Positions 7,862-54,491 of a stretch of DNA of 64,000 bases are shown here, piece by piece. Source of the stretch: an uncultured Pirellulales bacterium (GTDB lineage: Bacteria > Planctomycetota > Phycisphaerae > Sedimentisphaerales > Anaerobacaceae); assembly GCA_964431645.1 (NCBI GenBank), contig CAYSKP010000027.1, positions 3,385 to 67,384 on the forward strand, given 5' to 3'. The first letter of the stretch is position 1. Every line of letters starts with the position of its first letter. A model generated the notes under the pieces. That model did no database searches and had not been told where the DNA came from. It saw nothing but the letters and a program-made list of their open reading frames with translations. The translations under genes were made by a program, and so were the position numbers.

Positions 7862-7876
7862 TCTAATTGTTCTCAA

Positions 7877-35924: not shown

Positions 35925-35925
35925 A

Positions 35926-38065: not shown

Positions 38066-38074
38066 ATTTCAACC

Positions 38075-41321: not shown

Positions 41322-41346
41322 AAATATAGCTCCAAACTATTTAATT

Positions 41347-42222: not shown

Positions 42223-42263
42223 TACTTCAATCCGAAATCCGCAATGTGAAATCTAAAATTCCT

Positions 42264-43253
42264 TTACGGCACTTCGATATTATCGAAAATCGTCTGGATT
42301 ATATCTTCGCTTCTCTTGTTCTCGGCTTCCGCTTCATAGCTGACAATGACCCTGTGCCTAAGGACATCCATACCGATACTCTTTACATCCTGAGGGGTGA
42401 CATATCCACGCTGCTGAACAAAGGCATGTGCTTTGGCCGCGATTGCAAGGTATATCGTTGCTCTTGGGGAAGCGCCATAGGTAATCATATTCGTGAGTTT
42501 CAATCCGAATTTCTCGGGCTCTCTTGTGGCCGTGACTATGTTGACGATGTAATCCTTAATTTTTTCATCGATGTAGATTTCATCAACGACTGCCCTGACT
42601 TCGGCAATTTCATTTGGAGTTATAACAGGCTTTGTATCGAACTTTTTATCTGTCACTGCCATTCTATCGAGAATCTGCCGCTCCTCATTTTTATTGGGAT
42701 AATTAATCTTGAGCTTGAGCATAAACCTGTCCAGTTGTGCTTCGGGCAATGGGTATGTCCCTTCCTGCTCAATTGGATTTTGTGTCGCAAGGACCATAAA
42801 TGGGGATGGGAGTTTATGGGTCTCTTCTCCAATAGATACCTGTCTTTCCTGCATGGCCTCCAATAATGCGCTTTGGACCTTTGCCGGTGCCCTGTTGATT
42901 TCATCAGCGAGTATTATGTTTGCAAACAACGGGCCTTTGCGTGTATAGAATTGACTGTCAGATGCACGGTATATCTGGGTACCTATCAAATCAGCGGGCA
43001 GCAAATCCGGGGTAAATTGAATTCTTCTGAAATCGGCATTTATTGCCCGTGCCAATGTTGTCACCGCCAAAGTTTTGGCAAGGCCGGGGACGCCTTCGAG
43101 AAGTATATGGCCATTGGATAAAAGTCCGATAAGCATCCGTTCCAGCATATATTTTTGGCCGATTATGACCTTGTCCATCTCTGAAAATAAGGTCCGGACA
43201 AACTCACTTTTTTGCTGAACTAATGCCCCAATCTGTTTGACATCTGTCGTCAT
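42264..43253 (-). CDS. moxR: MoxR-family AAA+ ATPase
   Basis: Walker A LLEGVPGLAKT, Walker B ILADEINRA, and MoxR family length (329 aa). Confidence 0.9.
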   Translation of the reverse strand: MTTDVKQIGALVQQKSEFVRTLFSEMDKVIIGQKYMLERMLIGLLSNGHILLEGVPGLAKTLAVTTLARAINADFRRIQFTPDLLPADLIGTQIYRASDSQFYTRKGPLFANIILADEINRAPAKVQSALLEAMQERQVSIGEETHKLPSPFMVLATQNPIEQEGTYPLPEAQLDRFMLKLKINYPNKNEERQILDRMAVTDKKFDTKPVITPNEIAEVRAVVDEIYIDEKIKDYIVNIVTATREPEKFGLKLTNMITYGASPRATIYLAIAAKAHAFVQQRGYVTPQDVKSIGMDVLRHRVIVSYEAEAENKRSEDIIQTIFDNIEVP

Positions 43254-43496
43254 ATATAATCTCCTCTAAATACAAACTCAAGCAAAACCAAATACTTCTG
43301 AATAAAAGCTGTAAAAAAGCCTGTTTTTGCGTAAAAAACTCAGAAAAATTACGTTTTTCACATAAAAAGGTTCGGCAAAGCATATAAAAAATTTGATGTT
43401 TTTTAACGCCTCATCAGGTTATATTTTCATTGAAATTACAGCCGAAAAAAGGCTGATAGTCAATCGCTTTAATTAACAAACTTAAATAAATACTTT

Positions 43497-44543
43497 CTAG
43501 CCGCTTGTTACCAACTGCTCAATTTGCCTTTCCATGGCCGCCGTATACTTTCCCTGGCGGGCGGCGCTGCAGCATTTTGCACGATGATATAATATCTGCT
43601 GGGCCATGGCACTGTTTTCGTAATGACCTTTCCATGTTTCCAATGCAGGCTGCTGGATAGCGCGGGAATATGAAAAAGTAAGGGGCCACGGCAGTCTCGA
43701 TTCGAATCTTGTATGCATAGCATTGAGACGGGCCGCTGCTAAATCGTAAGGCTGACCTCCGGATAAGAAAGCTACTCCGCCTGTTGCGGCCGGAACAGTT
43801 CGCAAAAGGCAAGTCACTGTTGCGTCAGCCACTTCTTCGACAGATTCCTGTCTTTGGCATTTGATTCCGGGAAGAACCATGCTGGGTTTAAGAATTGTTT
43901 CTTCTAAAACAATCTTTTGAATATTAAGTTGGTTGAAAACGGAATGTAAAACCTCCTGTGTTACTTCAAAGCATCTGGTCATCGAATGGTCGCCGTCAAT
44001 GAGAACTTCAGGCTCAACAATGGGGACAATTCCGGCTTCAAGGGACAAAGCGGCGTAACGTGCCAGTGCATTAGCGTTTGCTTCGATGCATCCTCGTGTG
44101 GGAATGCCTTCACCAATGGTTATTACGGCCCGCCATTTTGAAAACCGGGCACCCATTTGAGCATATTCTTCGAACCTTTGCCGAAGGCCATCGAGACCTT
44201 CTGTAATTTTTTCGCCGGGATGAAAGGCCATATCTACAGCATGCTTATCAACTTTTATGCCTGGGATGATTCCCGTTTCTTTCATGATCTTAAGGAAGGG
44301 CGTTCCATCTGATTTTGATTGGCGTATAGTTTCATCGAAAAGAATTGCGCCGCTTATAAATTTTCCAAGATTGGGAGTTGTTAAAATCATTTCCCTGTAG
44401 GCCCTGCGGAAATCTTCAATTGACGGAACACCGACTTTTTCAAACCGGTTGTTGCATGTAGTGTTGCTTTCATCCATAGCCAGAAGGCCTTTGCCTTCTG
44501 CCATAAGCTGTTTTACAGTATCAATAAGGTCTTGCGCACTCAT
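43497..44543 (-). CDS. fba: Fructose-bisphosphate aldolase, class I (eukaryotic-type)
   Basis: GKGLLAMDESNTTCNNRF...GAILFDETIRQ...IIPGIKVDKH are class I aldolase hallmarks. An AAGGAG RBS precedes the ATG at 44543. Confidence 0.85.
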   Translation of the reverse strand: MSAQDLIDTVKQLMAEGKGLLAMDESNTTCNNRFEKVGVPSIEDFRRAYREMILTTPNLGKFISGAILFDETIRQSKSDGTPFLKIMKETGIIPGIKVDKHAVDMAFHPGEKITEGLDGLRQRFEEYAQMGARFSKWRAVITIGEGIPTRGCIEANANALARYAALSLEAGIVPIVEPEVLIDGDHSMTRCFEVTQEVLHSVFNQLNIQKIVLEETILKPSMVLPGIKCQRQESVEEVADATVTCLLRTVPAATGGVAFLSGGQPYDLAAARLNAMHTRFESRLPWPLTFSYSRAIQQPALETWKGHYENSAMAQQILYHRAKCCSAARQGKYTAAMERQIEQLVTSG

Positions 44544-44671
44544 TTTAATCTCCTTTAAATATGAATAATTGTCTGTGATAAAAAAGAGGGAAAGAAGTGG
44601 CATCATGCTTAAATTTTAATAGTATTTTGCTTAAGAAGTGCTGCAGCAGATGTGCTTTAAAAATGAATTTA

Positions 44672-45427
44672 TTATTTTATCTTGCCTAAAAGCCGCAGCA
44701 GCCCGTCAAGAATAGTAAGAGGATGAGGCGGACAGCCGGCGATATATAAATCAACAGGAACTATCTTATCTGCAGCATTATGAACCTGCGGCAAATCTCG
44801 ATATGGACCGCCTGATATAGCGCAAGCACCCACAGCAATGGTTATCTTGGGGTCAGGCACGGCATCGTAGGTTTTTTCCAGTGCAAGTTTCATATTATCA
44901 CTGACCGGCCCTGTAATAAGTAAACCATCGGCATGCCGGGGAGAAGCAACAAATTGAATACCGAACCTGCCTAAATCATAAACAACTGTGCCCAGGACAT
45001 TGGTATCGGCCTCGCATGCGTTACAGCCGCCGGCGGAAACCTGTCTTAGCTTCAAAGACCTGCCGAATAATTTTTTCATCCGCTTATCAAATGCTTCAGC
45101 AAGTTTTAATTCTCCATTGCAGATTATCAAATCTTCTTTTGTTCTTGCCGCCAGACGATATTCTTTACTAAGTTGTATCGCTCCAGATGGGCAAGACTGC
45201 TGACATTGCCCGCAAAATAAACATTTGCCCAGGTCAATATTTAGAGATTTTGTTTTTGTAATTGCATTTGTCGGGCAATTGTCAATGCAGCGACTGCAAT
45301 CCCGTTTACATTTTGCAAAATCAATTAAAGGCCTGCCGCGAAATCTTTCCGGAAGCGCAGGTGTGTGATTTGGAAACGAAATCGTCCGGTATCCCTGCTG
45401 CAATCTTGCCATTAAAGCCTTAATCAT
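44672..45427 (-). CDS. Fusion of a 2x[4Fe-4S] ferredoxin domain with a NuoB/HycG-like small subunit
   Basis: CKRDCSRCIDNCP and CLFCGQCQQSCP cluster motifs come first. The NuoB-type cluster ligands follow: GGCNACEAD, GACAISGG and GCPP. Confidence 0.85.
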   Translation of the reverse strand: MIKALMARLQQGYRTISFPNHTPALPERFRGRPLIDFAKCKRDCSRCIDNCPTNAITKTKSLNIDLGKCLFCGQCQQSCPSGAIQLSKEYRLAARTKEDLIICNGELKLAEAFDKRMKKLFGRSLKLRQVSAGGCNACEADTNVLGTVVYDLGRFGIQFVASPRHADGLLITGPVSDNMKLALEKTYDAVPDPKITIAVGACAISGGPYRDLPQVHNAADKIVPVDLYIAGCPPHPLTILDGLLRLLGKIK

Positions 45428-45435
45428 TTCGTCAC

Positions 45436-46947
45436 CTATAAATCATGGCCGCAATAAGATAAATTGAAACTCTTATTGCAAAGCGGAAAATCTGAAATCT
45501 GCTGGTTTCTAAGTGCTATTGCCAGGCCTGTCCAGTTGTGAAAAGAAGGGTCAACAATTTTATAATGGCTCAATTTCCCATCTGTCCCTGTCAACCCGAC
45601 GTGGCATATCTCGCCTCGCCAGCCCTCGATAAGACTGACACATATTTTATTCGGCAAAGCCGCTTTTATCTCCGAGTTAATTGGCCCGTCAGGTATCATG
45701 TTGAGCTGGTCATTAATAAAATCGATAGACCTTTGTATTTCAAGCCACCTCACATAAGCCCTGGCAAATACGTCACCTGTATGCCAGCTCGAAATTGGTA
45801 TCTGTGAAAAACAATAAATTCCTGCGGGAAAATTAAACCGTGAATCTATTTCCATGCCGCACGCCCTTGCAGGGACACCCACTAACCCCAGTTTTTTACA
45901 AATATCCGTCTGCACAATACCTGTCTCTTCAAAACGGGCAAGGACCGAAGATGTGTTCCAGAGCAAATCAGCGGCGACATTCACATCTTTTAAGTCCCTT
46001 GCAAGTTTTTCCAGCAGCTCATCGCAATGTTGTTTATTTATATCGAAACCGGCCCCGCCAGGAACAACTAATCCCCTGCCGAATCTATTACCGCAAATAA
46101 GGGCAGTCATATTGAGAAAATCACCGCGAATCCTGCCGCAAAAAGACGATGTTGGAAGATAGCCGACATCCCCGGCAAGAGCCCCGAGATCACCTGTATG
46201 ATTCGCTAATCTTTCAAGCTCAAGAGCTATCCCGCGTAAAGTTTGAGCACGAGGTGAGACTCTGCAATCCGAGAGTGATTCCATTAGCTGGCAGTATGCA
46301 GTCGTGTGGCCGATTGTTGTATCGCCTGCAAGTGTCTCCATAAAATGAATAGTTCTTCTATCAGGACCGCCGGTCAGCGTTCGTTCAATGCCGCGGTGCT
46401 GATAGCCGAGCGATATTTCAAGATTTAGAACATTTTCACCAAAACATTGAAATCGAAAATGTCCCGGCTCGATAATTCCCGCGTGCACAGGGCCAACAGC
46501 GACTTCGTGAATCTCTTCTCCTTCAACCTTGAAGAAATCCATCACTGATGGGAGTATTTCAGCTTTTTTATGAATGATATTTGAGTATGAATTATGAAAC
46601 CGAACTGGCTTAAGCCATGGATGTCCCTCTGGGGATATTGACCATTGTTCGTATATCTCACGCTCAAACATGTGAGCCTGTGGGCAATCGGGTGTAAGCG
46701 AAGGATATTTATCCGTCACCTCTGAAGATAACACCGAAAGATTACCTGCATTATCGTCAGCGAGAATCGCAAATAAACGAAATTTCTGCGGAGTTGCCGG
46801 ATACGCGAAAAATGATGTTATTCTTTTTCCTGAGTTTACGGCCTCAATAATAAATGACCTAAAGTTGTTTATTCCAACTACAGGAATCTGCTTTATATCG
46901 ACGGACTGGCAATTGAACAATGATATTGAATTTCCTGCAATCATCAA
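45436..46947 (-). CDS. NuoC-NuoD / HycE-like 'large subunit' lacking the [NiFe] cysteine ligands
   Basis: NuoC-like N-terminus (HMFEREIYEQW). NuoD/HycE core (GPVHAGIIEPGHFRF, YQHRGIER). The L1 site reads ETLAGDTTIGHTTAY instead of ERxCGxCxxxH. The C-terminus reads SFNLSYCGHDL-stop instead of S(I)DPCxSCxDR. Confidence 0.85.
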   Translation of the reverse strand: MMIAGNSISLFNCQSVDIKQIPVVGINNFRSFIIEAVNSGKRITSFFAYPATPQKFRLFAILADDNAGNLSVLSSEVTDKYPSLTPDCPQAHMFEREIYEQWSISPEGHPWLKPVRFHNSYSNIIHKKAEILPSVMDFFKVEGEEIHEVAVGPVHAGIIEPGHFRFQCFGENVLNLEISLGYQHRGIERTLTGGPDRRTIHFMETLAGDTTIGHTTAYCQLMESLSDCRVSPRAQTLRGIALELERLANHTGDLGALAGDVGYLPTSSFCGRIRGDFLNMTALICGNRFGRGLVVPGGAGFDINKQHCDELLEKLARDLKDVNVAADLLWNTSSVLARFEETGIVQTDICKKLGLVGVPARACGMEIDSRFNFPAGIYCFSQIPISSWHTGDVFARAYVRWLEIQRSIDFINDQLNMIPDGPINSEIKAALPNKICVSLIEGWRGEICHVGLTGTDGKLSHYKIVDPSFHNWTGLAIALRNQQISDFPLCNKSFNLSYCGHDL

Positions 46948-48419
46948 TATCCTCCTATTGCCGAAGCGACACTGTGAAGCAGCCTGTCAAAGACAGGTGG
47001 AATATATAGTCCAAGCATGAGAGTCATCGCCCCTAATGCAAGAGGCGGCAGAATTTTAAATACGCCGGCGGGTCTGTCTTTAACCTGTAAATTGTCGTTT
47101 TTTTGCCCTTGTGTCATATTCAAAAAGGCTGCTGACATGCCCACAAAGACAACAGCAAGTAACGAAAGAAAAGCTATAGCAATACCGATCCGACCCTGCT
47201 CAATCATGGATTTAACAATTGTAAATTCGCTGACAAAAATCCCGAAAGGCGGCATCCCTGAAATCGCGAGAAACCCTCCCAGCCACAAAACACCCGTTAT
47301 GGGGGAAACAGATAAAATTCCCTGGACCTCTTTAGTTGTTTTTGTTTTATAAATAGCGATTAGATTGCCCGCTACCATAAAGAGCATAGCCTTTGCAACG
47401 GAATGATTGACCGCGTGAAGTACCGCACCGAAAGTTGCACCCGCCCCGATGCCTACACCTAGAGCCAGAATACCGATATGCTCAACACTGGAATATGCCA
47501 GCATCCTTTTATAATCGGCCTGGCCCAAAATGAAAATGGCTGCCCACGCGATTGATATCAACCCGAATAATACAAGAAGTCCCTGACAAAATTTTGCTTC
47601 GCCGGCTGCCGAGCAAACCTGATAGCACCTTAATATTGCGAGAAAAGCACAATTTAAAAGAGCGCCTGAAAGCAAAGCAGAAATTATTGAAGGGGCTTCG
47701 CTGTGCGCATCCGGCAGCCATGTATGTAAAGGGGCCAAACCCATTTTTGTCCCATAACCTACGAGGAAGAATAAGAAGGCTGCCTTAAGCCACTGAATAT
47801 TGAGATTATGTCCCTCTTGTATAAGAGCGTTTAAGACTATCGCCGTCCCTTCGGCTGCAGGCTTTGTGTCGGCTATTACTATGAAGAAATTGCCTAGCAG
47901 AGCAAGGGCGATACCGACGGAGCATATCAGCAGATATTTCCATGTGGCTTCCAGAGAGCGATGATGCCGATGAAAATATATCAATGGCGCACTGGCCAGT
48001 GTTGTCGCCTCCATTGCCACCCATAGTATTCCAAAATGCTGACTCACTGTCACCAGAGTCATTGTCGCAAGGAACGCCTCGATACAAGCGCAAAAAATTG
48101 CTTCAGGGGCATTGGTAAAGATTGTCTCTTCCTCGAAAACCTGTTTCTTATTCCGCGCTTCTCCGGCGAGATACCCGAATGTGTAAAATGAGCATGCCAA
48201 AAAAAGCACACTGGTAATTGTTAAAAATAACAGGCCGAGTTTATCTAACATAATCCAGCCATTAAAAAGGGGTGCAGGCTCAATACTCCACGCTATTATA
48301 GTAACGCAGGTATGGCCTATAGCCGCGAGTATGAGAATGATTCTGCGTAACATATCGTTACGTATTATCAGCGATAAAACTGCGGCTATCACTGGAATCA
48401 ATAAGAGTGCAAGAATCAT
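46944..48419 (-). CDS. NuoN/HyfF-like antiporter-type membrane subunit
   Basis: 491-aa polytopic protein with Mrp/NuoLMN-like composition. Its order matches hyfF. Confidence 0.8.
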   Translation of the reverse strand: MILALLLIPVIAAVLSLIIRNDMLRRIILILAAIGHTCVTIIAWSIEPAPLFNGWIMLDKLGLLFLTITSVLFLACSFYTFGYLAGEARNKKQVFEEETIFTNAPEAIFCACIEAFLATMTLVTVSQHFGILWVAMEATTLASAPLIYFHRHHRSLEATWKYLLICSVGIALALLGNFFIVIADTKPAAEGTAIVLNALIQEGHNLNIQWLKAAFLFFLVGYGTKMGLAPLHTWLPDAHSEAPSIISALLSGALLNCAFLAILRCYQVCSAAGEAKFCQGLLVLFGLISIAWAAIFILGQADYKRMLAYSSVEHIGILALGVGIGAGATFGAVLHAVNHSVAKAMLFMVAGNLIAIYKTKTTKEVQGILSVSPITGVLWLGGFLAISGMPPFGIFVSEFTIVKSMIEQGRIGIAIAFLSLLAVVFVGMSAAFLNMTQGQKNDNLQVKDRPAGVFKILPPLALGAMTLMLGLYIPPVFDRLLHSVASAIGGY

Positions 48420-48423
48420 AACC

Positions 48424-49068
48424 TCAGCTCCTTAATCTCGAAAGCTGGTCGGTGTCAATATGGTCGAATTCGCGATTAATATGGAAAATCGCAATACCCA
48501 TTACGAAGACTGCCACAAATATATCAAGCAGTACCCCAATCTCAACAAGCATCGGCTGCTGCTTGACCAGTGCTACTCCGAAAGCATATATACCATTTTC
48601 CAGGACTAAGTAACCAAGAACCTGTGTAAGCGCCTTTTTTCTGCTAATGATAAGAAACAATCCTGACATAATCGTAAAGAACGCCACAGGCACAATCAAT
48701 GGAGACATCAGCGGCTGTGGAAAAGGCAGACGATGGCTGAGCCACATACAAGTTAAAAATGCGATTGTCCCTGCAATGATTGAAATTCCGTAACCAATAA
48801 ACGGCTCTATTTCACGCTGTATCGACAGCTCTCTAAGGGTCCTGTTGAGCATCCACGGGAATACGCCGCCTTTTAAGCTGATGATGACTATTGAAAACAA
48901 AACAAGATGCATTTCAAAATTCCATTGGTTTAATATTAGAGGCAGAAAACTAAGCGCAACACCCTGCAGGGCTACAATACGAATACAAGCGCCCATCCTG
49001 CTTAGACCTAGCAGCATCAGATTTGTTAAAACAAGAAATATCATTATTAAATCAGCGGTATTATTCAT
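48424..49068 (-). CDS. HyfE-like small membrane subunit
   Basis: 214 aa with about 7 TM helices. Its position matches hyfE. Confidence 0.7.
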   Translation of the reverse strand: MNNTADLIMIFLVLTNLMLLGLSRMGACIRIVALQGVALSFLPLILNQWNFEMHLVLFSIVIISLKGGVFPWMLNRTLRELSIQREIEPFIGYGISIIAGTIAFLTCMWLSHRLPFPQPLMSPLIVPVAFFTIMSGLFLIISRKKALTQVLGYLVLENGIYAFGVALVKQQPMLVEIGVLLDIFVAVFVMGIAIFHINREFDHIDTDQLSRLRS

Positions 49069-49072
49069 TCAA

Positions 49073-49978
49073 TCACCTTAACACCAGCGCCAATACCGAA
49101 AGTGTTGTCGCACCAATCAAAAGCTGCGGCACATGAAGCAGCCGCAGCCTGGCCATAGAGGACTCGATTATGCCTACAAGTACAGCCAGAATAAGCATAG
49201 CCGCCATTGCTGATGAAGTATCGATCCAGATATTGTGGGTATGTATCGGGACTGTAATACCGATAATGACCTGCCCAAGCAGCCACATTTTCAGCACAGC
49301 GGAATAAAGGATGAATCCGAAATCCGGTCCGGAATGGTCAAGCACCATAACCTCATGTATCATTGTCAATTCGAGATGAGTATTCGGGTCATCGACAGGT
49401 ATCCTGCAATTTTCCGCAAGAAAAACAATCAAGAGAGCAAAAGCAGTCAAAATAAGGACAGCACCTGAACTAATCCATAAGCCCGGCACTACTGTGGAAA
49501 ACATCTGGTTAAGGGATATAAATCCTGTGCATTTTGCAATGGCGGCAAGACCAATCAAAAGTGCCGGTTCTGATAATGCAGAAAATGTCACTTCCCTGCT
49601 TGCCCCCATTCCTTCAAAACTTGAGCCGGTGTCCATGGCGCTAATCACAGTGAAAAATCGCATTAAGCCAAAAAGATAAATAAATAAAATCAAATCACCA
49701 TTGAAAGATATGGCAGCAGGTAAACCCCCGAAAGGCATTAATAATGAGGCCGTAAGTGTTACGGCAAATCCAAGCAGAGGACCGGTCCGGAAAATCCATG
49801 ATGTTGTCCTGCTGTAAACCGCCCCTTTTCTAAAGAGTTTGAAAATATCATAATAAGTTTGAAATAAAGGCTGTCCCCTTCTGCCTGCGAAAACGGCCTT
49901 AGTCCTGTTTATCACTCCGAGTAAAAATGGCGCGATAACGATTGCGAGAACCGGATTTGCTAATTTCAGGATTATCAT
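49073..49978 (-). CDS. NuoH/HyfC/HycD-like membrane subunit
   Basis: 301-aa polytopic protein. The RKGAVYSR-type loop and gene order match complex I subunit 1 family proteins. Confidence 0.75.
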   Translation of the reverse strand: MIILKLANPVLAIVIAPFLLGVINRTKAVFAGRRGQPLFQTYYDIFKLFRKGAVYSRTTSWIFRTGPLLGFAVTLTASLLMPFGGLPAAISFNGDLILFIYLFGLMRFFTVISAMDTGSSFEGMGASREVTFSALSEPALLIGLAAIAKCTGFISLNQMFSTVVPGLWISSGAVLILTAFALLIVFLAENCRIPVDDPNTHLELTMIHEVMVLDHSGPDFGFILYSAVLKMWLLGQVIIGITVPIHTHNIWIDTSSAMAAMLILAVLVGIIESSMARLRLLHVPQLLIGATTLSVLALVLR

Positions 49979-49979
49979 C

Positions 49980-51959
49980 TCACATCAATTTCCAAATTAA
50001 AAGGACCCAAAGAGTCAAGGCAATATATAAAATGTAAATCTGAAGTCTTCCCTTCTGAAGCCAGTGAAGCTGCGAAAAAGACGAGCTGATCCATTTAAAC
50101 AGCGGCCGATACATATATTTTTCACTTAAATCTGATGTGTTCGTGTGAAATGCCGAGTCCTTGGGGAAAATATCTTTAATTACCGAAATCTTTTTCAAAC
50201 TCCCCAAAAACATCTTGAATAAATCAGTTAAGGGCTGGGCAAAAGATGCGGCAGTGTATTGCATCCTTGCATCAGGTCTTGCATAACCGCAATCCCATGT
50301 CCCCACGTTTCTTATAGATCGTGCCGAAAGAACCAATTTACGATAAATCGAGAAGATGACTATCAATCCAGCTAAAAACAAAGATATAATTACAATATAT
50401 GTCAGCGCCTCTGATGTGTTTACAAGTTCAAGGCGAATTGTATTAATCGGAATCGATGTTATTGCGAAAATCACATTCTCTGCAGATTTTATAATCAATG
50501 GTGAGCATATGCCTAATAAAACACATAAACTTGCAAGTATTATCATTGATATTTTCATAAAAAAACCGGCTTCGTGCGCCTCTTTTGCGTGATTACTTCG
50601 AGCTTCGCCTAAAAATATTACTCCGAATGCCTTTGTAAAACACGCAAGTGCAAGTCCGCCTATTAGTGACAAGCTTCCTACGACAACCAAGGCCGGGATA
50701 ATAGATGCAAATCTCTCGCCCAAGCCATTCTTGAAAACTCCCAGGTAAATCAAAAACTCACTAACAAAGCCGTTCAAAGGAGGCAATCCGCAAATTGCTA
50801 TTGAACCGACTAAAAAAGTTAAACCAGTTATCGGCATTCTTTTTATAAGTCCGCCCAATAAATCAATATGACCTGTTTTGGTAGCGTGAAGCACCGAGCC
50901 TGCTCCGAGAAAGAGCAATCCTTTGAAAACTGCATGATTTATAACGTGAAATAATCCGCCGGCAAAACCAAGGATTGCAAGGGCCGGCATTTTCATATTC
51001 ATGCCCAGAAGCCCAACACCGAGACCTAATGTAATAATTCCGATATTTTCTACGCTGTGATAAGCCAGTAATTTTTTTAAGTCATGCTGCGCAAGTGCAA
51101 AGAGAACGCCTAGAACTCCTGAAATAGCGCCAATAGCGATAAGTGTCCAGCACCACCAATTAGGAGGCATTCCTAAAACTGTTAATGCCCTGACCAAACC
51201 ATAAATGCCGGTTTTTATCATAACCCCGCTCATTACTGCCGAGACATGGCTCGGTGCGGCTGGATGTGCGTATGGCAGCCAAATATGCATTGGCATGAAA
51301 CCAGCCTTTGTTCCAAAACCGATTATCGCAAGAATAAATAATATGCTTTCCATTGAAGATGGAATCGCCGGAATTTTATCAAAATCCAATGAGCCCGCCT
51401 GAATTCCGAGGAGAATAAAAAATATAATTAAAAAAGCTGTTCCGATATGTGTCGCGATAAGATAAATCCAGCCTGCGTGACGAACCATTGGCTTTTCATA
51501 TTCGAAGGTAACCAGGAAAAAGGAGGCGAGCGACATTATTTCCCAGCTTATCAGAAACAATAATCCATTTCTGCTGGTTACAACAAGAGCCATTGATGCC
51601 AAAAGAAGATTGTAAAAGAACCATGAAATGCCGAGATTTTTGTGTTGGCGATATTGCCAAAGATATTGAGCACCATAAATTGCGGCAATGGCGGTAAGTC
51701 CAAAAATTGGAATTAAAAATAAAGCTGATAATGCATCTATTTGAATGAAAAAGGAGCCGAAAGGCATGCTCCAGTTCAAACGCAATGATTCGCAAGTGCC
51801 TGTGATAAGGATAGTTATAGAAGGGATTAATGAAATAGCGCTTCCGATTACGGCAGAAGTTGATCCCAGAATAGTTGCAATTAATGGCTTTCGGCCAAAA
51901 AATAAAGAACTCAAACCGCCTGCAATGATAATCACCAGACCAGAGATGAAGAATTGCAT
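49980..51959 (-). CDS. NuoL/HyfB-like antiporter-type membrane subunit
   Basis: 659-aa polytopic protein with the conserved NuoL/HyfB-type WLPYAHPAAPSHVSA segment. Confidence 0.8.
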   Translation of the reverse strand: MQFFISGLVIIIAGGLSSLFFGRKPLIATILGSTSAVIGSAISLIPSITILITGTCESLRLNWSMPFGSFFIQIDALSALFLIPIFGLTAIAAIYGAQYLWQYRQHKNLGISWFFYNLLLASMALVVTSRNGLLFLISWEIMSLASFFLVTFEYEKPMVRHAGWIYLIATHIGTAFLIIFFILLGIQAGSLDFDKIPAIPSSMESILFILAIIGFGTKAGFMPMHIWLPYAHPAAPSHVSAVMSGVMIKTGIYGLVRALTVLGMPPNWWCWTLIAIGAISGVLGVLFALAQHDLKKLLAYHSVENIGIITLGLGVGLLGMNMKMPALAILGFAGGLFHVINHAVFKGLLFLGAGSVLHATKTGHIDLLGGLIKRMPITGLTFLVGSIAICGLPPLNGFVSEFLIYLGVFKNGLGERFASIIPALVVVGSLSLIGGLALACFTKAFGVIFLGEARSNHAKEAHEAGFFMKISMIILASLCVLLGICSPLIIKSAENVIFAITSIPINTIRLELVNTSEALTYIVIISLFLAGLIVIFSIYRKLVLSARSIRNVGTWDCGYARPDARMQYTAASFAQPLTDLFKMFLGSLKKISVIKDIFPKDSAFHTNTSDLSEKYMYRPLFKWISSSFSQLHWLQKGRLQIYILYIALTLWVLLIWKLM

Positions 51960-52697
51960 TTAGCTTGCCTCTCTAACTTCAGCAGGGGCCGGACTTTGAG
52001 GTGAGTTTGGGCTTGTTCCATTGGATTTTAGATTGGCTTCGACACGCTTAATTTCAGCATAAATTTCATCGCGGGTGGCCTGAGTTTCTATGACCTTTCT
52101 GAAGGCATCGTCACGAAGCGCAAATGCAAGTCTTGAAAGGAGATACAGATGGGCTTTAACTGTGGGACTTATAAGTGTAAACAGGCAAGTAACGGGCTTG
52201 CCGTCAAGAGAGCCGAAATCGATCGGTTTTTCAAGGAAGCATAATGAGATAATTGGCTCTAACACATGGAGGACAATGGGGTTACGGACGTGAGGGATGG
52301 CAATGCCGTCGCCGACGGCGGTTGAGGCGATTGCCTCGCGCGCTAAAAGCACTTGCAGCAAGAAGTTACGATCGATTTCTTGAGGCAGCCTCATTAAATT
52401 AACGACGGTTTTTAGGGCGGATTCTTTGTTATCGCCTTCGATACGATAGTAGATGCCGCCCTGCATTAATGCCGCAAGAAGTCCGCCTGATGGGAGAGAT
52501 GTGCCATTGGGCTCCATGAAAAGGTCGGCAGAGACGCCAATTTGCTTGGAAGTGGCCCATTCGAGCAGTTCTGCCTTATTAAAACGGTACTGATTTCCGA
52601 GCTGATAGGCGGGGAGATTACCCTGCTTTAGCCATCTGTAAATCGTTTTCTCATTTACATTTAGGAGCTTTGCTACATCTTTTACTGAAAGCTGCAT
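51960..52697 (-). CDS. HTH (excisionase/MerR-type) DNA-binding domain fused to a PTS EIIA(Ntr/Fru)-type domain
   Basis: N-terminus VKDVAKLLNVNEKTIYRWLKQGNLPAYQLGNQYRFNKAELLEWA. EIIA-2 domain with GDGIAIPHVRNP (phosphorylatable His). Its stop codon abuts the ATG of the next gene. Confidence 0.8.
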   Translation of the reverse strand: MQLSVKDVAKLLNVNEKTIYRWLKQGNLPAYQLGNQYRFNKAELLEWATSKQIGVSADLFMEPNGTSLPSGGLLAALMQGGIYYRIEGDNKESALKTVVNLMRLPQEIDRNFLLQVLLAREAIASTAVGDGIAIPHVRNPIVLHVLEPIISLCFLEKPIDFGSLDGKPVTCLFTLISPTVKAHLYLLSRLAFALRDDAFRKVIETQATRDEIYAEIKRVEANLKSNGTSPNSPQSPAPAEVREAS

Positions 52698-52915
52698 TTC
52701 ATCACCCTATTGATATATGCTTTCTATGCAATGGACAATTGTGGACACAATAAGATAAATGTCGGCAAATGTCAAGGCAATGCATAAAGAAAGAGGATTT
52801 GGTGTATGTAAGTTATTTGTTTTTAAGGTATTATTGCTTGGAATTTTTTTAAATTTTTTGCGATAATATGATTTGAAACGTGCTAAATTTGATCCTGAAA
52901 CGTTTGCAAATGATA

Positions 52916-53080
52916 GAGAAACGATCCCGAAACGGTACCCATATGATACCTAAACGATACCGATATGAATGCATCTGAAAAAATGAAAATGGATCCTCGG
53001 CAGAAGGCCAAGGAGTACACCCGAGGACCTGCGCTGCGCTCGGAAACGATAGAGAAGTGATCCCTAAACTATCCCTAAAG
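52916..53080. repeat. Second copy of the GAGAAACGATCCCGAAACNGTACC / CCCNAAACTAT repeat element
   Basis: 52916-52939 gagaaacgatcccgaaacggtacc matches 10607-10630 at 23/24 positions. 53061-53080 tccctaaactatccctaaag resembles the 10651-10690 tandem unit. Additional GAAACG words occur at 52875-52905. Confidence 0.7.
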
Positions 53081-53099
53081 GATACTTTTCGATATCGAT

Positions 53100-54491
53100 A
53101 TGACTACCAATTTTTTAGAGACAACTGACAACTTAAGGGAGATGGCGAGAAGACTGAGGCTGAAGATTCCAGTCGAAGATGACATCTCAATTTTAGGTGA
53201 GCCAATAAAAATTGGAACTCTTAATGCGCCGAACCGGATGGCGGTCAACCCGATGGAAGGCGCGGATGGAGACAGCATTGGCAGACCTGGTGAACTGACG
53301 CTGAGGAGATATAAAAGATTTGCGGCCGGAGGATGCGGAATTATATGGGCGGAGGCGATGGCAGTTGTGCCGGAGGGCAGGGCAAATCCAAGACAACTAT
53401 GGCTAAATGACAAGAGCAAAGATGAATTCGCAAAAATGATTTCAATGATGCGCAAGGCCGCACATGATTCGATGGGTAATTCGCATAATCCAATCATAGT
53501 TGCGCAACTGACACATTCGGGGAGATATTCGAAGCCGGAGGGGATTTCAAAACCTATAATACCGCAGAGGGACCCATATAGGGACGCGATGAAACCTCAG
53601 GAGAAGCCGAAAAAAATACACGGGCAAGATGCCCGTGTTACGGGGCCGATTGCTACCGATGAATATCTCGATGGGTTGATTGGGCATTATGTTACGGCCG
53701 CGAAGATGGCATTTGAGATTGGATTTGACGCCGTGGATATAAAGGCATGTCACGGATATTTAATCAATGAGTTATTGGCGTGCTTTAAGAGAGAGGGAAA
53801 ATACGGCGGGAGTTTTGAAAACAGGACGAGATTATTGCTTTCTATCATCGATGCGGTAAGACAGGAAGTTGGAAGTAACAAAATCATAACTACACGGATG
53901 GGGATTTATGATGCTATACCATATCCATACGGATGGGGGGTGGATAAGAAGGATTACAGGAAGGCGGATTTGAGTGAGCCGAAGAAGCTATTTAAATTAT
54001 TGGCACAGCGAAATATTCCAATGGTTAATATCACGATTGGAAATCCATATTATAATCCGCATTTTAACCGGCCGTTCAATGAGCCGATTGCAGATGGGTA
54101 CAAGTCGCCGGAAAAACCGCTTGAAGGTGTCGCCAGGATGATTGGACTGACAGCCCAAATGCAGAAGGCATTTCCAGGGATGGTTTTGATAGGGCCGGGA
54201 TATAGCTGGCTACGCCAATTGATGCCGTATGTCGGGGCGGGGGTTTTGAAGAATAAAATGGCAAGCGTGATGGGCGCAGGCAGGATGTCTTTTGCGTATC
54301 CGGATTTCGCCAGGGACATTATTAAAAACGGCAAGATGGACCCGAACAAGGTCTGTATTGCGTGCAGCGCATGCACACAGATTATGAGGGATGGGGGGAC
54401 AACGGGATGCGTTGTTCGGGACAACAAGATTTACGGGCCTATTTTTAAACACGGCAGGATGAGTAATAGAGATAATCTGCCGAAGCCATAG
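53100..54491 (+). CDS. Old Yellow Enzyme-family NADH:flavin oxidoreductase (TIM barrel)
   Basis: NRMAVNPMEG, AQLTHSGR and DAVDIKACHGYLINELL are OYE/2,4-dienoyl-CoA-reductase N-domain motifs. A Cys-rich segment follows (CIACSACTQIMRDGGTTGC). Confidence 0.8.
   Translation: MTTNFLETTDNLREMARRLRLKIPVEDDISILGEPIKIGTLNAPNRMAVNPMEGADGDSIGRPGELTLRRYKRFAAGGCGIIWAEAMAVVPEGRANPRQLWLNDKSKDEFAKMISMMRKAAHDSMGNSHNPIIVAQLTHSGRYSKPEGISKPIIPQRDPYRDAMKPQEKPKKIHGQDARVTGPIATDEYLDGLIGHYVTAAKMAFEIGFDAVDIKACHGYLINELLACFKREGKYGGSFENRTRLLLSIIDAVRQEVGSNKIITTRMGIYDAIPYPYGWGVDKKDYRKADLSEPKKLFKLLAQRNIPMVNITIGNPYYNPHFNRPFNEPIADGYKSPEKPLEGVARMIGLTAQMQKAFPGMVLIGPGYSWLRQLMPYVGAGVLKNKMASVMGAGRMSFAYPDFARDIIKNGKMDPNKVCIACSACTQIMRDGGTTGCVVRDNKIYGPIFKHGRMSNRDNLPKP

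What the first reader, a model, noticed from the sequence alone, without database searches (positions are those of the whole stretch)
44672..51959. Six-subunit Hyf/complex-I-like membrane module whose 'hydrogenase large subunit' has lost all four [NiFe] cysteine ligands
The gene order is HyfB/NuoL-like, NuoH-like, HyfE-like, HyfF/NuoN-like, NuoCD/HycE-like, then ferredoxin-NuoB-like. This copies a group-4 membrane-bound hydrogenase.

In the large subunit, the L1 motif ERxCGxCxxxHxxAY reads ETLAGDTTIGHTTAY (Cys replaced by Ala and by Thr; 46288-46338). The C-terminal S(I)DPCxSCxDR reads SFNLSYCGHDL-stop (45439-45471). That leaves no ligand at either canonical position and no C-terminal extension for maturation proteolysis. 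The NuoB-like subunit keeps all its cluster Cys. No hyp, formate dehydrogenase or CODH genes are in the window.

This fits the poorly characterised 'energy-converting hydrogenase-related' (Ehr) class. It would be a redox-driven ion pump with an unknown electron donor and acceptor, not a hydrogenase.
Basis: partly seen in the sequence, partly recalled or inferred. Interest (0 to 1): 0.65.

Follow-up and report, generated by a model that had tools for sequence, protein, structure and literature searches.

The report
Ehr complex: cysteine-less hydrogenase-like ion pump
This is an intact copy of the known but functionally unsolved "Ehr" membrane complex: a relative of hydrogen-producing enzymes that has lost its nickel-iron site, here in an uncultured sediment planctomycete, with a conserved regulator gene attached.

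Summary
Six tightly packed minus-strand genes (44672-51959) encode HyfB-, HycD/NuoH-, HyfE-, HyfF-, HycE/NuoCD- and HycF+HycG/NuoB-like proteins. In the large subunit the four [NiFe] cysteine positions read A, T, S and G. The small subunit keeps all 12 Fe-S cysteines.

The loss is family-wide, not a private decay. All 120 closest homologues, all 80 species-level genome loci (12 or more phyla) and 85 of 86 diverse cluster representatives lack a full ligand set. They share the signature [AS]-G-D-[ST]...H and N-L-S-Y-x-G-x-D-L-stop. The replacement residues are among the best conserved columns.

This is the published ehrABCDLS (Ehr) complex of Geobacter, and the same family as Azorhizobium/Rhizobium hyq.

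New here:
- A seventh gene (51960-52697), an HTH fused to a PtsN-like EIIA domain, abuts the cluster. It lies colinear directly upstream in 34 of 51 loci with enough flank.
- Behind a sigma-70-like promoter sits a conserved tandem TGTCCA-N5-TGTCC operator.

The complex most likely passes ferredoxin electrons to a non-proton acceptor and pumps ions. The acceptor is unresolved. Complex-I quinone-site features are absent and the host order is reported as strictly fermentative.

The parts
52733..52775 (-). Promoter-like site (TTGACA-17 nt-TATTGT) followed directly by a tandem direct repeat, TGTCCACAATTGTCC. This is the putative operator of the HTH-EIIA protein.
   Evidence: It is the best sigma-70-like match on the minus strand in 43200-53200. 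The pattern TGTC[CT]-N5/6-TGTC[CT] occurs once in the whole 64-kb window, here, 50 nt before the ATG. It is found mostly about 40-50 nt (range 39-128) before the ATG in 13 of 28 orthologous upstream regions from Planctomycetota, Verrucomicrobiota and Geopsychrobacteraceae. Background is 23 hits in 2.63 Mb.
51960..52697 (-). Seventh gene: an excisionase/MerR-type HTH (HTH_17) fused to a PtsN-like PTS EIIA domain with the phospho-histidine motif GIAIPH. It is the likely dedicated regulator.
   Evidence: Pfam PTS_EIIA_2 scores 3e-28 and HTH_17 2e-17. Its stop TAA directly abuts the EhrA ATG. The best solved relatives are all PtsN/EIIA-Ntr. The AF2 model matches PtsN at TM 0.80-0.84 normalised to the PtsN chain. 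H136 is invariant in 31 orthologues. The gene lies colinear directly upstream of the cluster in 34 of 51 loci with room, and nearby in about 5 more.
49980..51959 (-). EhrA: HyfB/NuoL-like antiporter-type membrane subunit (659 aa).
   Evidence: NCBIfam hydrogenase 4 subunit B scores 3e-187 over residues 3-655. Pfam Proton_antipo_M scores 4e-53.
49073..49978 (-). EhrB: HycD/NuoH-like subunit that anchors the peripheral arm (301 aa).
   Evidence: Pfam NADHdh scores 4e-29. PDB matches: HycD 2.4e-32, MbhM 4e-19, complex I ND1 only about 4e-4.
48424..49068 (-). EhrC: HyfE-like small membrane subunit (214 aa) with a NuoK-like C-terminal half.
   Evidence: NCBIfam hydrogenase 4 membrane subunit scores 8e-25 over residues 6-213. 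Pfam Oxidored_q2 scores 5e-7.
46944..48419 (-). EhrD: HyfF/NuoM,N-like antiporter-type subunit (491 aa).
   Evidence: NCBIfam hydrogenase 4 subunit F scores 4e-112. PDB matches: MbhH 3e-28, MrpA 6e-26, NuoM 9e-25. The TM5 Glu, TM7 Lys and TM12 Glu are kept, and the TM8 Lys is Asn.
45436..46944 (-). EhrL: fused NuoC+NuoD/HycE-like large subunit (502 aa) without any [NiFe] cysteine ligand.
   Evidence: PDB matches: HycE 7e-43, MbhL 2e-33, Nqo4 7e-26. AF2 model: pLDDT 86.6, pTM 0.90. Foldseek best match is HycE at TM 0.86, then E. coli NuoCD at 0.83. The ATG overlaps the EhrD stop by 1 nt.
46294..46338 (-). Remnant of the L1 motif: ETLAGDTTIGHTTAY in place of ERxCGxCxxxHxxAY.
   Evidence: G207 (94%) and D208 (88%) are among the best conserved columns in 86 diverse representatives.
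45439..45471 (-). Remnant of the L2 motif: SFNLSYCGHDL followed by stop, in place of DPCxxCxxR/H.
   Evidence: S496 is 92% conserved, G499 95% and D501 97%. All 80 genome loci end in LSY[CAS]GxD[LM].
44672..45427 (-). EhrS: a HycF/NuoI-like 2x[4Fe-4S] domain fused to a HycG/NuoB-like proximal-cluster domain (251 aa).
   Evidence: Pfam Oxidored_q6 scores 2e-27, plus Fer4 families. PDB matches: MbhJ 4e-33, HycG 2e-31, and HycF 8e-17 on residues 9-101. All 12 ligand cysteines are present. The proximal cluster uses CxxC, not tandem CC.

Best explanation

**Shown**
- There is a four-subunit membrane arm. It has two antiporter-like subunits (EhrA, EhrD), HyfE-like EhrC and HycD-like EhrB.
- There is a two-protein peripheral arm. 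EhrS carries ligands for three [4Fe-4S] clusters. EhrL has the hydrogenase large-subunit fold, but its four Ni-Fe cysteine positions are replaced (A/S, S/T, S, G). A conserved polar set surrounds them (E159, D208, H213, S496, Y497, D501).

**Inferred**
- Reduced ferredoxin from sugar fermentation docks on the HycF-like domain of EhrS.
- Electrons pass along the three clusters to the rebuilt pocket at the EhrL/EhrS/EhrB junction.
- There they reduce an acceptor other than protons, with protons supplied by the conserved acidic and polar residues.
- The resulting charge and conformational change drives H+ or Na+ translocation through EhrB-C-D-A, as in Mbh, FHL and complex I. The reaction may be reversible.
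- The acceptor is not established. A membrane quinone is the textbook guess, but a small soluble acceptor is about as likely in this lineage.
- Expression is probably controlled by the co-transcribed HTH-EIIA(Ntr)-like protein. It would bind the tandem TGTCCA repeat at its own promoter and respond to phosphorylation of His136 by a PTS-Ntr-type relay.
For: - **Homology and order.** Every subunit is homologous to its Hyf/Hyc counterpart and the order matches.
- **Loss of the ligands.** All four Ni-Fe ligands are gone in the window. The same holds in the 120 closest homologues, in 80 of 80 species genomes from 12 or more phyla and in 85 of 86 diverse representatives.
- **Conserved replacements.** The replacement residues rank in the 87th-96th percentile of column conservation, at a mean pairwise identity of 36%. 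This argues for a working, re-purposed site.
- **Fe-S ligands.** All 12 Fe-S cysteines are retained.
- **Pumping residues.** Key antiporter residues are retained in EhrD.
- **Fold.** The predicted fold equals HycE at TM 0.86.
- **Synteny.** The six-gene order is preserved across phyla with no other conserved neighbour.
- **Literature.** The definition of Ehr and its unknown function are in PMC6349859, PMC10284858, PMC6688271 and PMC7894505. In the last, all Geobacter Ehr subunits are detected and more abundant on formate.
- **Regulator.**
Against: - No biochemical datum exists for any Ehr complex.
- The donor is inferred only from the HycF/NuoI-like domain. The Rhizobium Hyq small subunit lacks that domain.
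- No acceptor can be named.
- Complex-I quinone features are absent. By my counting along the alignment, Nqo4 H38 and Y87 align with I158 and G207. The proximal cluster has CxxC rather than tandem CC (criterion from PMC8165549). EhrB is far closer to HycD than to NuoH.
- Sedimentisphaerales are described as strictly fermentative with a missing respiratory chain (PMC11266412).
- The active-site loops are the low-confidence parts of the model (153-161 and 498-502).
- No transcript data exist for this organism.
Confidence: 0.6

Rival explanations
1. It is specifically a ferredoxin:menaquinone oxidoreductase. It would work like photosynthetic NDH-1, or Fpo without FpoF: the pocket binds a membrane quinone that takes the electrons from the proximal cluster.
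For: - Complex I, NDH-1 and Fpo are the precedents for losing all four cysteines and gaining a quinone-type acceptor (PMC8165549, PMC4758237).
- The family is common in quinone-respiring lineages such as Geobacter, Geothrix, Gemmatimonadota and Methylacidiphilum (PMC6688271).
- The Hyq authors inferred a quinone site (PMC3357923).
- D259 aligns with Nqo4 D139.
Against: - The Q ligands H38 and Y87 are not present (I158/E159 and G207).
- There is no tandem-Cys N2 ligation.
- EhrB scores 2e-32 against HycD but only about 4e-4 against ND1.
- The host order is reported to lack a respiratory chain (PMC11266412).
- Ehr is reported in Riflemargulisbacteria, where no full quinone biosynthesis pathway was found (PMC6349859).
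- D259 is also Asp in MbhL, so it is not specific for quinone.
Confidence: 0.22
2. It runs mainly in reverse. The ion gradient drives electrons uphill from a higher-potential donor onto ferredoxin. This would supply low-potential reductant for biosynthesis or nitrogenase, as Rnf or Fix do.
For: - The Azorhizobium hyq operon is NifA/sigma-54 controlled and induced under N2 fixation and low O2 (PMC2650096).
- The attached regulator here is of the nitrogen-PTS (PtsN) type.
- Geobacter Ehr is more abundant on formate, a condition with little ferredoxin-generating TCA flux (PMC7894505; the link to TCA flux is my inference).
- Complex-I-type enzymes are reversible (established knowledge).
Against: - A fermenter makes plenty of reduced ferredoxin, so it has no obvious need for this.
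- The donor is as unknown as the acceptor in the forward model.
- There is no direct evidence.
Confidence: 0.12
3. It is a real hydrogenase with a cysteine-free active site, as claimed for the Azorhizobium Hyq 'endo-hydrogenase'. It would either evolve H2 from ferredoxin (the physiological niche of Ech/Mbh in fermenters) or couple H2 to quinone.
For: - Deletion of hyqRBCEFGI changed in vivo H2 uptake and evolution in A. caulinodans (PMC2650096, PMC3357923).
- Rhizobium HyqG carries the same signature (SGDS ... NKSFNCSYSGHDL), so Hyq belongs to this family.
- The hydrogenase proton-relay Glu (E159) and His213 are kept.
- The family sits next to a four-Cys hydrogenase (P0230).
- Many hosts are fermenters, for which H+ is the natural electron sink.
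Against: - No known chemistry holds the NiFe(CN)2CO cofactor without thiolates.
- Positions 3 and 4 are Ser and Gly in over 90% of the family.
- Pfam NiFeSe_Hases does not match.
- The extra cysteines are not conserved.
- The Hyq evidence is genetic and physiological only, and its authors doubt a Ni,Fe site.
- The mutant phenotypes could be indirect, for example through electron supply to nitrogenase.
Confidence: 0.06
4. It has no net redox turnover. It would be an Mrp-like cation/proton antiporter whose Fe-S arm only senses the cell's redox state, serving ion or pH homeostasis.
For: - The membrane arm is Mrp-related.
- A pH-homeostasis role was suggested for Methylacidiphilum Ehr (PMC6688271).
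- PtsN-type proteins regulate K+ transport in E. coli (established knowledge), and the regulator here is PtsN-like.
Against: - A three-cluster wire and a highly conserved pocket are more than sensing needs.
- No Mrp system is known to carry such an arm without catalysis.
Confidence: 0.06
5. It is a dead hydrogenase, a non-functional relic drifting under relaxed selection, as stated for Geobacter Ehr in PMC13194489.
For: - The catalytic ligands are lost.
- Missense mutations accumulated in ehrA-2 and ehrB during 17 years of electrode culture (PMC13194489).
Against: - All seven ORFs are intact and tightly coupled.
- Identity among Sedimentisphaerales-type homologues is 63-83%.
- The same replacement residues are fixed across 12 or more phyla.
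- All Fe-S ligands are kept.
- The proteins are detected and regulated in Geobacter (PMC7894505).
Confidence: 0.02

Closest known systems
Ehr (Ech/energy-converting hydrogenase-related) complex, ehrABCDLS, first described in Geobacter sulfurreducens (GSU0739-45)
   Same: - The six subunit types and their order are the same.
- The large subunit lacks both CxxC motifs, and the small subunit keeps its cluster ligands.
- EhrL is 54-58% identical to Geobacteraceae, Geomonas and Pelobacter orthologues in the same synteny.
   Different: - Geobacter-type clusters carry a second EhrA-like gene (EhrA-1 and EhrA-2). The window has one.
- In some Geobacteraceae the HTH-EIIA + EhrA-1 pair is divergently transcribed (L042, L043).
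Azorhizobium/Rhizobium hyqRBCEFGI 'endo-hydrogenase' operon
   Same: - It is a seven-gene operon: a regulator plus B, C, E, F, G and I.
- HyqG is about 504 aa and lacks both CxxC motifs.
- It has the same [AS]GD[ST] and NxSYxGxDL signature (L083).
   Different: - Identity is only 33.5%.
- HyqI has no ferredoxin-like domain (178 aa).
- HyqR is a 99-aa XRE-type HTH, not HTH_17+EIIA.
- The hosts are aerobic or microaerobic diazotrophs.
- Hydrogenase activity was claimed for Hyq.
E. coli formate hydrogenlyase / hydrogenase-4 (Hyc/Hyf, group 4a) and group 4f [NiFe] hydrogenases
   Same: - The FHL subunits HycE, HycG and HycD are the best or near-best solved relatives of EhrL, EhrS and EhrB (MbhJ edges HycG for EhrS); HycE is also the best fold match to EhrL (TM 0.86).
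- The HyfB-C-E-F-G-(H+I) order is the same.
- The proximal cluster has hydrogenase-type CxxC ligation.
- A four-Cys relative (P0230) is 38% identical, with near-identical flanking motifs.
   Different: - The window has no Ni-Fe ligands, no HyfA/HyfD/HyfJ/HyfR, no formate dehydrogenase partner and no maturation protease site.
- HyfH and HyfI are fused into one protein.
Respiratory complex I, NDH-1 and Fpo
   Same: - They share the superfamily and the L-shaped modular plan.
- All four Ni-Fe cysteines are lost.
- There is a three-cluster terminal wire (NuoI+NuoB equivalents).
- The NuoCD fusion resembles E. coli NuoCD (TM 0.83).
   Different: - The window has no tandem-Cys N2 ligands and no Y87/H38 quinone ligands.
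- It has only two antiporter-like subunits.
- The NuoH homologue is HycD-like.
- There are no NuoA/J equivalents as separate genes and no NuoEFG.
Pyrococcus MBS/Mbx (membrane-bound sulfane-sulfur reductase)
   Same: It is a hydrogenase-derived, ferredoxin-dependent ion pump that no longer makes H2. It is a precedent for a non-proton, non-quinone acceptor reduced at the proximal cluster (PMC8165549).
   Different: - MBS keeps two vestigial cysteines and has a three-Cys proximal cluster plus a 13-subunit Mrp-type membrane arm.
- Ehr keeps none of the four cysteines, has a four-Cys proximal cluster and has six subunits.

Membership tests
Ehr complex (ehrABCDLS) | Six-gene cluster: NuoL-like, NuoH-like, HyfE-like, NuoM/N-like, large subunit, small subunit, in this order. 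| tested here: met
   The same order is seen in 80 related genome loci.
Ehr complex (ehrABCDLS) | The large subunit lacks both the N-terminal and the C-terminal CxxC Ni-Fe binding motifs. | tested here: met
   The loss is family-wide.
Ehr complex (ehrABCDLS) | The small subunit retains the four cysteines of the proximal [4Fe-4S] cluster. | tested here: met
   C135, C138, C202 and C232 align with the MbhJ and HycG ligands.
Ehr complex (ehrABCDLS) | Orthology to the Geobacter type cluster. | tested here: met
   EhrL is 54-58% identical to Geobacteraceae, Geomonas limicola and Pelobacter loci with the same synteny. G. sulfurreducens PCA itself was not retrieved.
Group 4 [NiFe] hydrogenase (Hyf/Hyc/Ech/Mbh, HydDB 4a-4i) | L1 (RxCGxCxxxH) and L2 (DPCxxCxxH/R) motifs supplying four Cys ligands. 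| tested here: not met
   The four positions read A, T, S and G. Pfam PF00374 is not matched.
Group 4 [NiFe] hydrogenase (Hyf/Hyc/Ech/Mbh, HydDB 4a-4i) | Hyp maturation genes and, for Hyc/Hyf, an endopeptidase with a C-terminal extension. | tested here: inconclusive
   None is present in the 64-kb window, and there is no extension. The rest of the genome is not available, and some true group-4 enzymes also lack the extension.
Group 4 [NiFe] hydrogenase (Hyf/Hyc/Ech/Mbh, HydDB 4a-4i) | H2 evolution or uptake activity. | not testable with these tools
   There is only the indirect genetic claim for the related Hyq operon (PMC2650096, PMC3357923).
Complex I / NDH-1 / Fpo (quinone-reducing) | Tandem cysteines (CC) ligating cluster N2 in NuoB. 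| tested here: not met
   EhrS has GGC135NAC138, i.e. CxxC. The criterion is from PMC8165549.
Complex I / NDH-1 / Fpo (quinone-reducing) | Quinone headgroup ligands in NuoD (Thermus Nqo4 H38 and Y87; also F146 and D401 per PMC4758237). | tested here: not met
   By my counting along the alignment, H38 aligns with I158 (E159 is adjacent), Y87 with G207, F146 with S266 and D401 with N494.
Complex I / NDH-1 / Fpo (quinone-reducing) | Eleven core subunits, including three antiporter-like subunits and NuoA/J/K. | tested here: not met
   There are six proteins with two antiporter-like subunits.
MBS/Mbx sulfane-sulfur reductase | Proximal cluster with only three Cys ligands, two vestigial Ni-Fe cysteines and an Mrp-type 13-subunit architecture. 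| tested here: not met
   There are four Cys ligands in EhrS, zero vestigial ligands in EhrL and six subunits.
Hyq 'endo-hydrogenase' (alphaproteobacterial diazotrophs) | A hyqRBCEFGI operon with a CxxC-less HyqG. | tested here: met
   The architecture and the active-site signature match those of Rhizobium johnstonii pRL11. It is a distant branch (33.5% identity), with a different regulator and an unfused small subunit.
PtsN / EIIA-Ntr (for the seventh gene) | EIIA_2 fold with the phosphorylatable His in an AIPH motif. | tested here: met
   Pfam scores 3e-28. GIAIPH136 aligns to PtsN GVAIPH. H136 is invariant. Fold TM is 0.80-0.84 normalised to the PtsN chain. Phosphotransfer itself was not tested. 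Free-standing PtsN has no HTH domain.

The most novel reading that the evidence does not exclude
The rebuilt pocket is a new catalytic centre rather than a quinone site. The pocket comprises [AS]-G-D-[ST] ... H, S-Y-x-G-x-D-L, E159 and the proximal cluster. In this reading Ehr is the main ferredoxin-oxidising ion pump of many strict fermenters that lack both a quinone pool and Ech/Mbh. It would use either a cysteine-free H2-forming site, as was claimed for Hyq, or a still unrecognised universal acceptor. Its expression would be tied to the nitrogen-PTS through the fused HTH-EIIA regulator.
Probability: 0.1. Interest if true: 0.85.

Novelty: new member of a known kind. Interest (0 to 1): 0.3.

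Why it matters
Ehr complexes have been flagged in genomes for about twenty years (Geobacter, Nitrospira, Methylacidiphilum, Margulisbacteria, Elusimicrobia). No substrate, activity or structure is known. If the complex is a ferredoxin-driven ion pump, it is a missing term in the energy budgets drawn for many anaerobes.

This particular copy adds no new class. The comparative work does give two practical handles:
- A sequence signature that separates Ehr from true group-4 hydrogenases, which matters because automated annotation calls these proteins 'Ni,Fe-hydrogenase III large subunit'.
- A conserved PtsN-like regulator with a simple operator. This can be tested in culturable hosts to learn when the complex is made.

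Tried and rejected
- **An alternative Cys-based metal site.** I tested whether the many invariant cysteines of the window's subfamily (C87, C167, C269, C284, C362, C447, C489, C498) could form one. I rejected this because none of them is conserved across the 86 diverse representatives.
- **Selenocysteine recoding of the ligands.** Rejected. The ligand positions are sense codons and the stop is TAG.
- **A conserved redox partner next to the cluster.** I clustered all flanking ORFs of the 80 loci. Nothing beyond the Ehr genes and HTH-EIIA recurs; the next family appears in 5 loci. The divergent OYE-like gene (53100-54491) and the downstream aldolase are not conserved elsewhere.
- **Expression data.** Only two DNA runs from freshwater sediment hold the sequence, and no RNA run does.
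- **Gene context of the four-Cys sister P0230.** The contig is only 2.2 kb, so it is uninformative.
- **Hyq sequence alignments.** The supplementary files of PMC3357923 are not held. I used the Rhizobium johnstonii pRL11 hyq locus instead.
- **Pocket geometry.** Model coordinates are not exposed and the active-site loops have pLDDT below 50. No distances or cavities could be measured.
- **The short motif ATCGTTT in the divergent intergenic region.** It is not enriched (7 found against 4 expected).
Not done. Placement near group 4f rests on the literature (PMC10284858) and on the single four-Cys relative.

Full report
**1.

The interval 44672-51959 carries six minus-strand ORFs separated by 0-8 nt, or overlapping by one base. 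Profile searches name them as follows:

| Coordinates | Subunit | Evidence |
|---|---|---|
| 49980-51959 | HyfB-like | NF005086, E 3e-187 |
| 49073-49978 | NuoH/HycD-like | Pfam NADHdh, 4e-29 |
| 48424-49068 | HyfE-like | NF008556, 8e-25 |
| 46944-48419 | HyfF-like | NF005044, 4e-112 |
| 45436-46944 | Fused NuoC+NuoD/HycE-like | Complex1_30kDa + Complex1_49kDa |
| 44672-45427 | Ferredoxin-like domain fused to NuoB/HycG-like | Fer4 families + Oxidored_q6, 2e-27 |

The HMMER alignment to the solved E. coli HycE (7z0s_E, E 7e-43) puts 'vCGiCgfaH' over 'lAGdTtigH' and 'dpCysCtdr' over 'nlSycGhdl'. The four Ni-Fe ligand positions are therefore Ala, Thr, Ser and Gly.

Pfam's NiFeSe_Hases model does not match. 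The stop is TAG, so no selenocysteine is hidden there.

The small subunit keeps eight cysteines for two ferredoxin-type clusters. It also keeps C135-x-x-C138, C202 and C232 for the proximal cluster.

None of the 40 larger window ORFs scanned is a hyp, formate dehydrogenase or CODH gene.

**2. Where it comes from**

The closest named homologues are from Sedimentisphaerales and Phycisphaerae MAGs (66-74% identity). The sequence is held by two freshwater-sediment metagenome runs and a JGI metagenome contig. G+C is about 43%.

[quoted passage not shown] It reports about 44% G+C for the family UBA12454 (PMC11266412).

**3. The cysteine loss is a family trait under selection**

- All 120 closest database homologues (63-100% identity) carry AGDT[TS]xGH-type L1 remnants and end in CNKSF[ND]LSYCGxDL.
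The best 80 loci come from Planctomycetota, Verrucomicrobiota, Desulfuromonadales/Geobacterales, Acidobacteriota, Spirochaetota, Gemmatimonadota, Elusimicrobiota, Chlamydiota, Fibrobacteres, Omnitrophota, Riflebacteria, Hydrogenedentota and others.
- All 80 have the Cys-less C-terminus, and 77 of 80 match my L1 pattern xGDxx.
- Among 86 alignable representatives of 50%-identity clusters (mean pairwise identity 36%), 76 have no Cys at any of the four positions. Nine have one, and a single protein (P0230, 38% identical) has all four: ERICGVCAASH and FELCYSCTDL.
- The replacements are themselves conserved:

| Residue | Conservation |
|---|---|
| G207 | 94% |
| D208 | 88% |
| S496 | 92% |
| Y497 | 81% |
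| G499 | 95% |
| D501 | 97% |
| E159 (proton-relay Glu) | 92% |

These columns lie in the 84th-96th percentile of column conservation.

The extra cysteines that are invariant in the window's subfamily, including the shifted C498, are not conserved family-wide. A substitute thiolate-ligated metal site is therefore unlikely.

The picture is of a re-purposed pocket, not a decaying one. This contradicts the statement in PMC13194489 that Ehr is simply non-functional.

**4. Fold and closest relatives**

An AlphaFold2 model of the large subunit has pLDDT 86.6 and pTM 0.90. Its low-confidence segments are exactly the two active-site loops, 153-161 and 498-502. It matches HycE best (TM 0.86) and then E. 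coli NuoCD (0.83).

FHL and Mbh subunits are the closest solved relatives of the subunits checked, ahead of complex I:
- EhrS matches MbhJ at 4e-33 and HycG at 2e-31. Its first 100 residues match HycF at 8e-17.
- EhrB matches HycD at 2e-32, but complex I ND1 only at about 4e-4.
- EhrD matches MbhH, MrpA and NuoM at 1e-24 to 1e-28. It keeps the TM5 Glu, TM7 Lys and TM12 Glu of the antiporter-like pumps, and the TM8 Lys is Asn.

**5. What it is called**

This is the Ehr complex.
- Geobacter sulfurreducens GSU0739-45 encodes EhrA-1, A-2, B, C (HyfE-like), D, L and S. All subunits were detected and were more abundant with formate (PMC7894505).
- The cluster is written ehrABCDLS in Methylacidiphilum (PMC6688271).
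- Ehr is defined as group-4-hydrogenase-related but lacking the Ni/Fe-coordinating residues, with unknown role (PMC6349859, PMC10284858, bioRxiv 10.1101/765248). It is placed near group 4f (PMC10284858).
- Geobacteraceae, Geomonas limicola and Pelobacter loci in my set share the synteny at 54-58% EhrL identity.

The Azorhizobium hyqRBCEFGI operon belongs to the same family. [quoted passage not shown] The Rhizobium johnstonii pRL11 orthologue reads ...GRTSGDSTVAY... and ...NKSFNCSYSGHDL-stop.

Hyq differs in three ways. Its small subunit has no ferredoxin-like domain. Its regulator is a 99-aa XRE-type HTH. And the authors attribute bidirectional in vivo hydrogenase activity to it from deletion phenotypes (PMC2650096, PMC3357923). 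No enzyme was isolated, and they themselves consider a Ni,Fe centre in HyqG 'uncertain, if not unlikely'.

**6. A seventh gene and its operator**

*The gene.* The ORF 51960-52697 ends in TAA immediately before the EhrA ATG. It encodes an excisionase/MerR-type HTH (HTH_17, 2e-17) fused to a PTS EIIA_2 domain (3e-28).
- By sequence, the solved relatives below E 1e-10 are all PtsN/EIIA-Ntr proteins, with GIAIPH136 aligned to the phospho-histidine motif.
- H136 is invariant in 31 orthologues.
- The AF2 model (pLDDT 78) matches PtsN structures at TM 0.80-0.84, normalised to the PtsN chain.

*Linkage.* In the 80 related loci, an orthologue lies colinear and directly upstream of the Ehr genes in 34 of the 51 loci that have room. 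About five more have it nearby. In lineages with two EhrA genes it stays next to EhrA-1. Nothing else in the flanks is conserved.

*Promoter and operator.* Upstream, the best sigma-70-like match of the region (TTGACA-17-TATTGT, 52775-52747) is followed at once by the tandem repeat TGTCCACAATTGTCC.
- The pattern TGTC[CT]-N5/6-TGTC[CT] occurs only here in the 64-kb window.
- It occurs mostly about 40-50 nt (range 39-128) before the start codon in 13 of 28 orthologous upstream regions from three phyla.
- Background is 23 hits in 2.63 Mb.

*Interpretation (inference).* Direct repeats one helical turn apart fit head-to-tail binding, as known for small Xis/BldC-like HTH proteins. This comparison rests on established knowledge plus a weak NCBIfam HTH_BldC hit. 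I read this as an autoregulated seven-gene operon whose expression responds to a PTS-Ntr-type phosphorylation signal. None of this was tested experimentally.

**7. How it probably works**

*What the anatomy shows.* There is a three-cluster wire ending at a conserved polar pocket, sitting on a HycD-like subunit and a two-pump membrane arm.

*What is inferred.* By analogy with Mbh, FHL, NDH-1 and MBS (PMC8165549):
- Reduced ferredoxin is the likely donor.
- The pocket or the proximal cluster reduces something other than protons.
- The energy drives H+ or Na+ translocation.

*The acceptor is open.* The usual suggestion, a quinone, is not supported by sequence.
- By my counting along the alignment, the complex-I ligands H38 and Y87 correspond to I158 and G207.
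- The proximal cluster has the hydrogenase CxxC ligation, not the tandem CC of N2.
- EhrB is HycD-like.
- The host order reportedly lacks a respiratory chain (PMC11266412).
- Ehr also occurs in Riflemargulisbacteria, where no complete quinone pathway was found (PMC6349859).

*Confidence in each reading.*

| Reading | Confidence |
|---|---|
| General: ferredoxin-linked ion pump with a non-proton acceptor | 0.6 |
| Specifically quinone-reducing | about 0.2 |
| Reverse operation to make reduced ferredoxin | about 0.1 |
| Cysteine-free hydrogenase | about 0.06 |
| Redox-gated antiporter without turnover | about 0.06 |
| Dead relic | about 0.02 |

The general and the more specific readings overlap, so these values need not sum to one.

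**8. Verdict**

The object is a new member of a known but uncharacterised class, routinely mis-annotated as 'Ni,Fe-hydrogenase III large subunit'.

The added value here is threefold:
- The family-wide signature of the rebuilt site.
- The link between Ehr and Hyq.
- The conserved HTH-EIIA regulator and its operator.

Interest is modest (0.3). A specialist would not be surprised, and this uncultured copy does not itself make the open question testable.

Noticed in passing
window 52733-52775 (minus strand): A sigma-70-like promoter is followed by the tandem repeat TGTCCACAATTGTCC. The same TGTCC-N5/6-TGTCC arrangement is conserved, mostly about 40-50 nt before the start codon, upstream of orthologous HTH-EIIA genes in three phyla. 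It is a likely operator.
   Followed up: yes
window 52901-52949 and 53037-53085: A 49-nt imperfect direct repeat (73% identity) lies in the divergent intergenic region between the ehr operon and the OYE-like gene at 53100-54491. Its purpose is unknown.
   Followed up: partly
window 43497-44606 (minus strand): A class I fructose-bisphosphate aldolase gene sits 65 nt downstream of EhrS on the same strand. It was seen in the same arrangement only on the near-identical metagenome contig L001, and not in any of the other 80 related loci.
   Followed up: partly
window 53100-54491 (plus strand): A 463-aa Old-Yellow-Enzyme-family flavoprotein is transcribed divergently from the ehr operon. It is not conserved next to Ehr elsewhere, so it is probably not a partner.
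   Followed up: partly
window 33349-43253 (minus strand): A Bat/MoxR 'aerotolerance'-type operon runs directly downstream: MoxR AAA ATPase, DUF58, two ORFs without Pfam hits, BatA, a VWA protein, a TPR protein and BatD.
   Followed up: no
window 22761-23615 (plus strand): An ApbE-family flavin transferase gene is present. This family flavinylates Rnf/Nqr subunits, which hints that the genome also has an Rnf- or Nqr-type ion pump.
   Followed up: no
window 4607-10387 (minus strand): Two adjacent very large GH5 cellulase-family genes (1089 and 836 aa) are present, the first with a PA14 domain. This fits a polysaccharide-degrading lifestyle.
   Followed up: no
window 25267-28509 (plus strand): A 1080-aa ORF has no Pfam match at E<=1e-5.
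   Followed up: no
window 59890-61359 (minus strand): A Na+/H+ exchanger is fused to a TrkA_C regulatory domain. It is another ion-homeostasis gene near the cluster.
   Followed up: no
L042 13419-20527; L056 2538-9956; L084 14616-19443: Some genomes (a Geobacteraceae MAG, a Verrucomicrobia MAG and a Variovorax plasmid) carry a second, divergent Ehr-type cluster in tandem with the first. In the two MAG loci its large subunit is 34-35% identical and also Cys-less (NASYSGHDL, NLSYSGTDR); the Variovorax second cluster runs off the fetched stretch before its large subunit, so that one was not checked.
   Followed up: partly
L026, L032, L033, L049, L050, L057, L079-L082 (upstream of EhrA): Many lineages, including Geobacterales and Geothrix, have a second EhrA-like gene, i.e. 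a third antiporter-like subunit. The window's cluster has only one.
   Followed up: partly
P0272 (homologue of the window gene 51960-52697): One homologue of the HTH-EIIA protein is 421 aa long instead of about 236-253 aa. It may be a duplicated or extended form. It was not examined.
   Followed up: no
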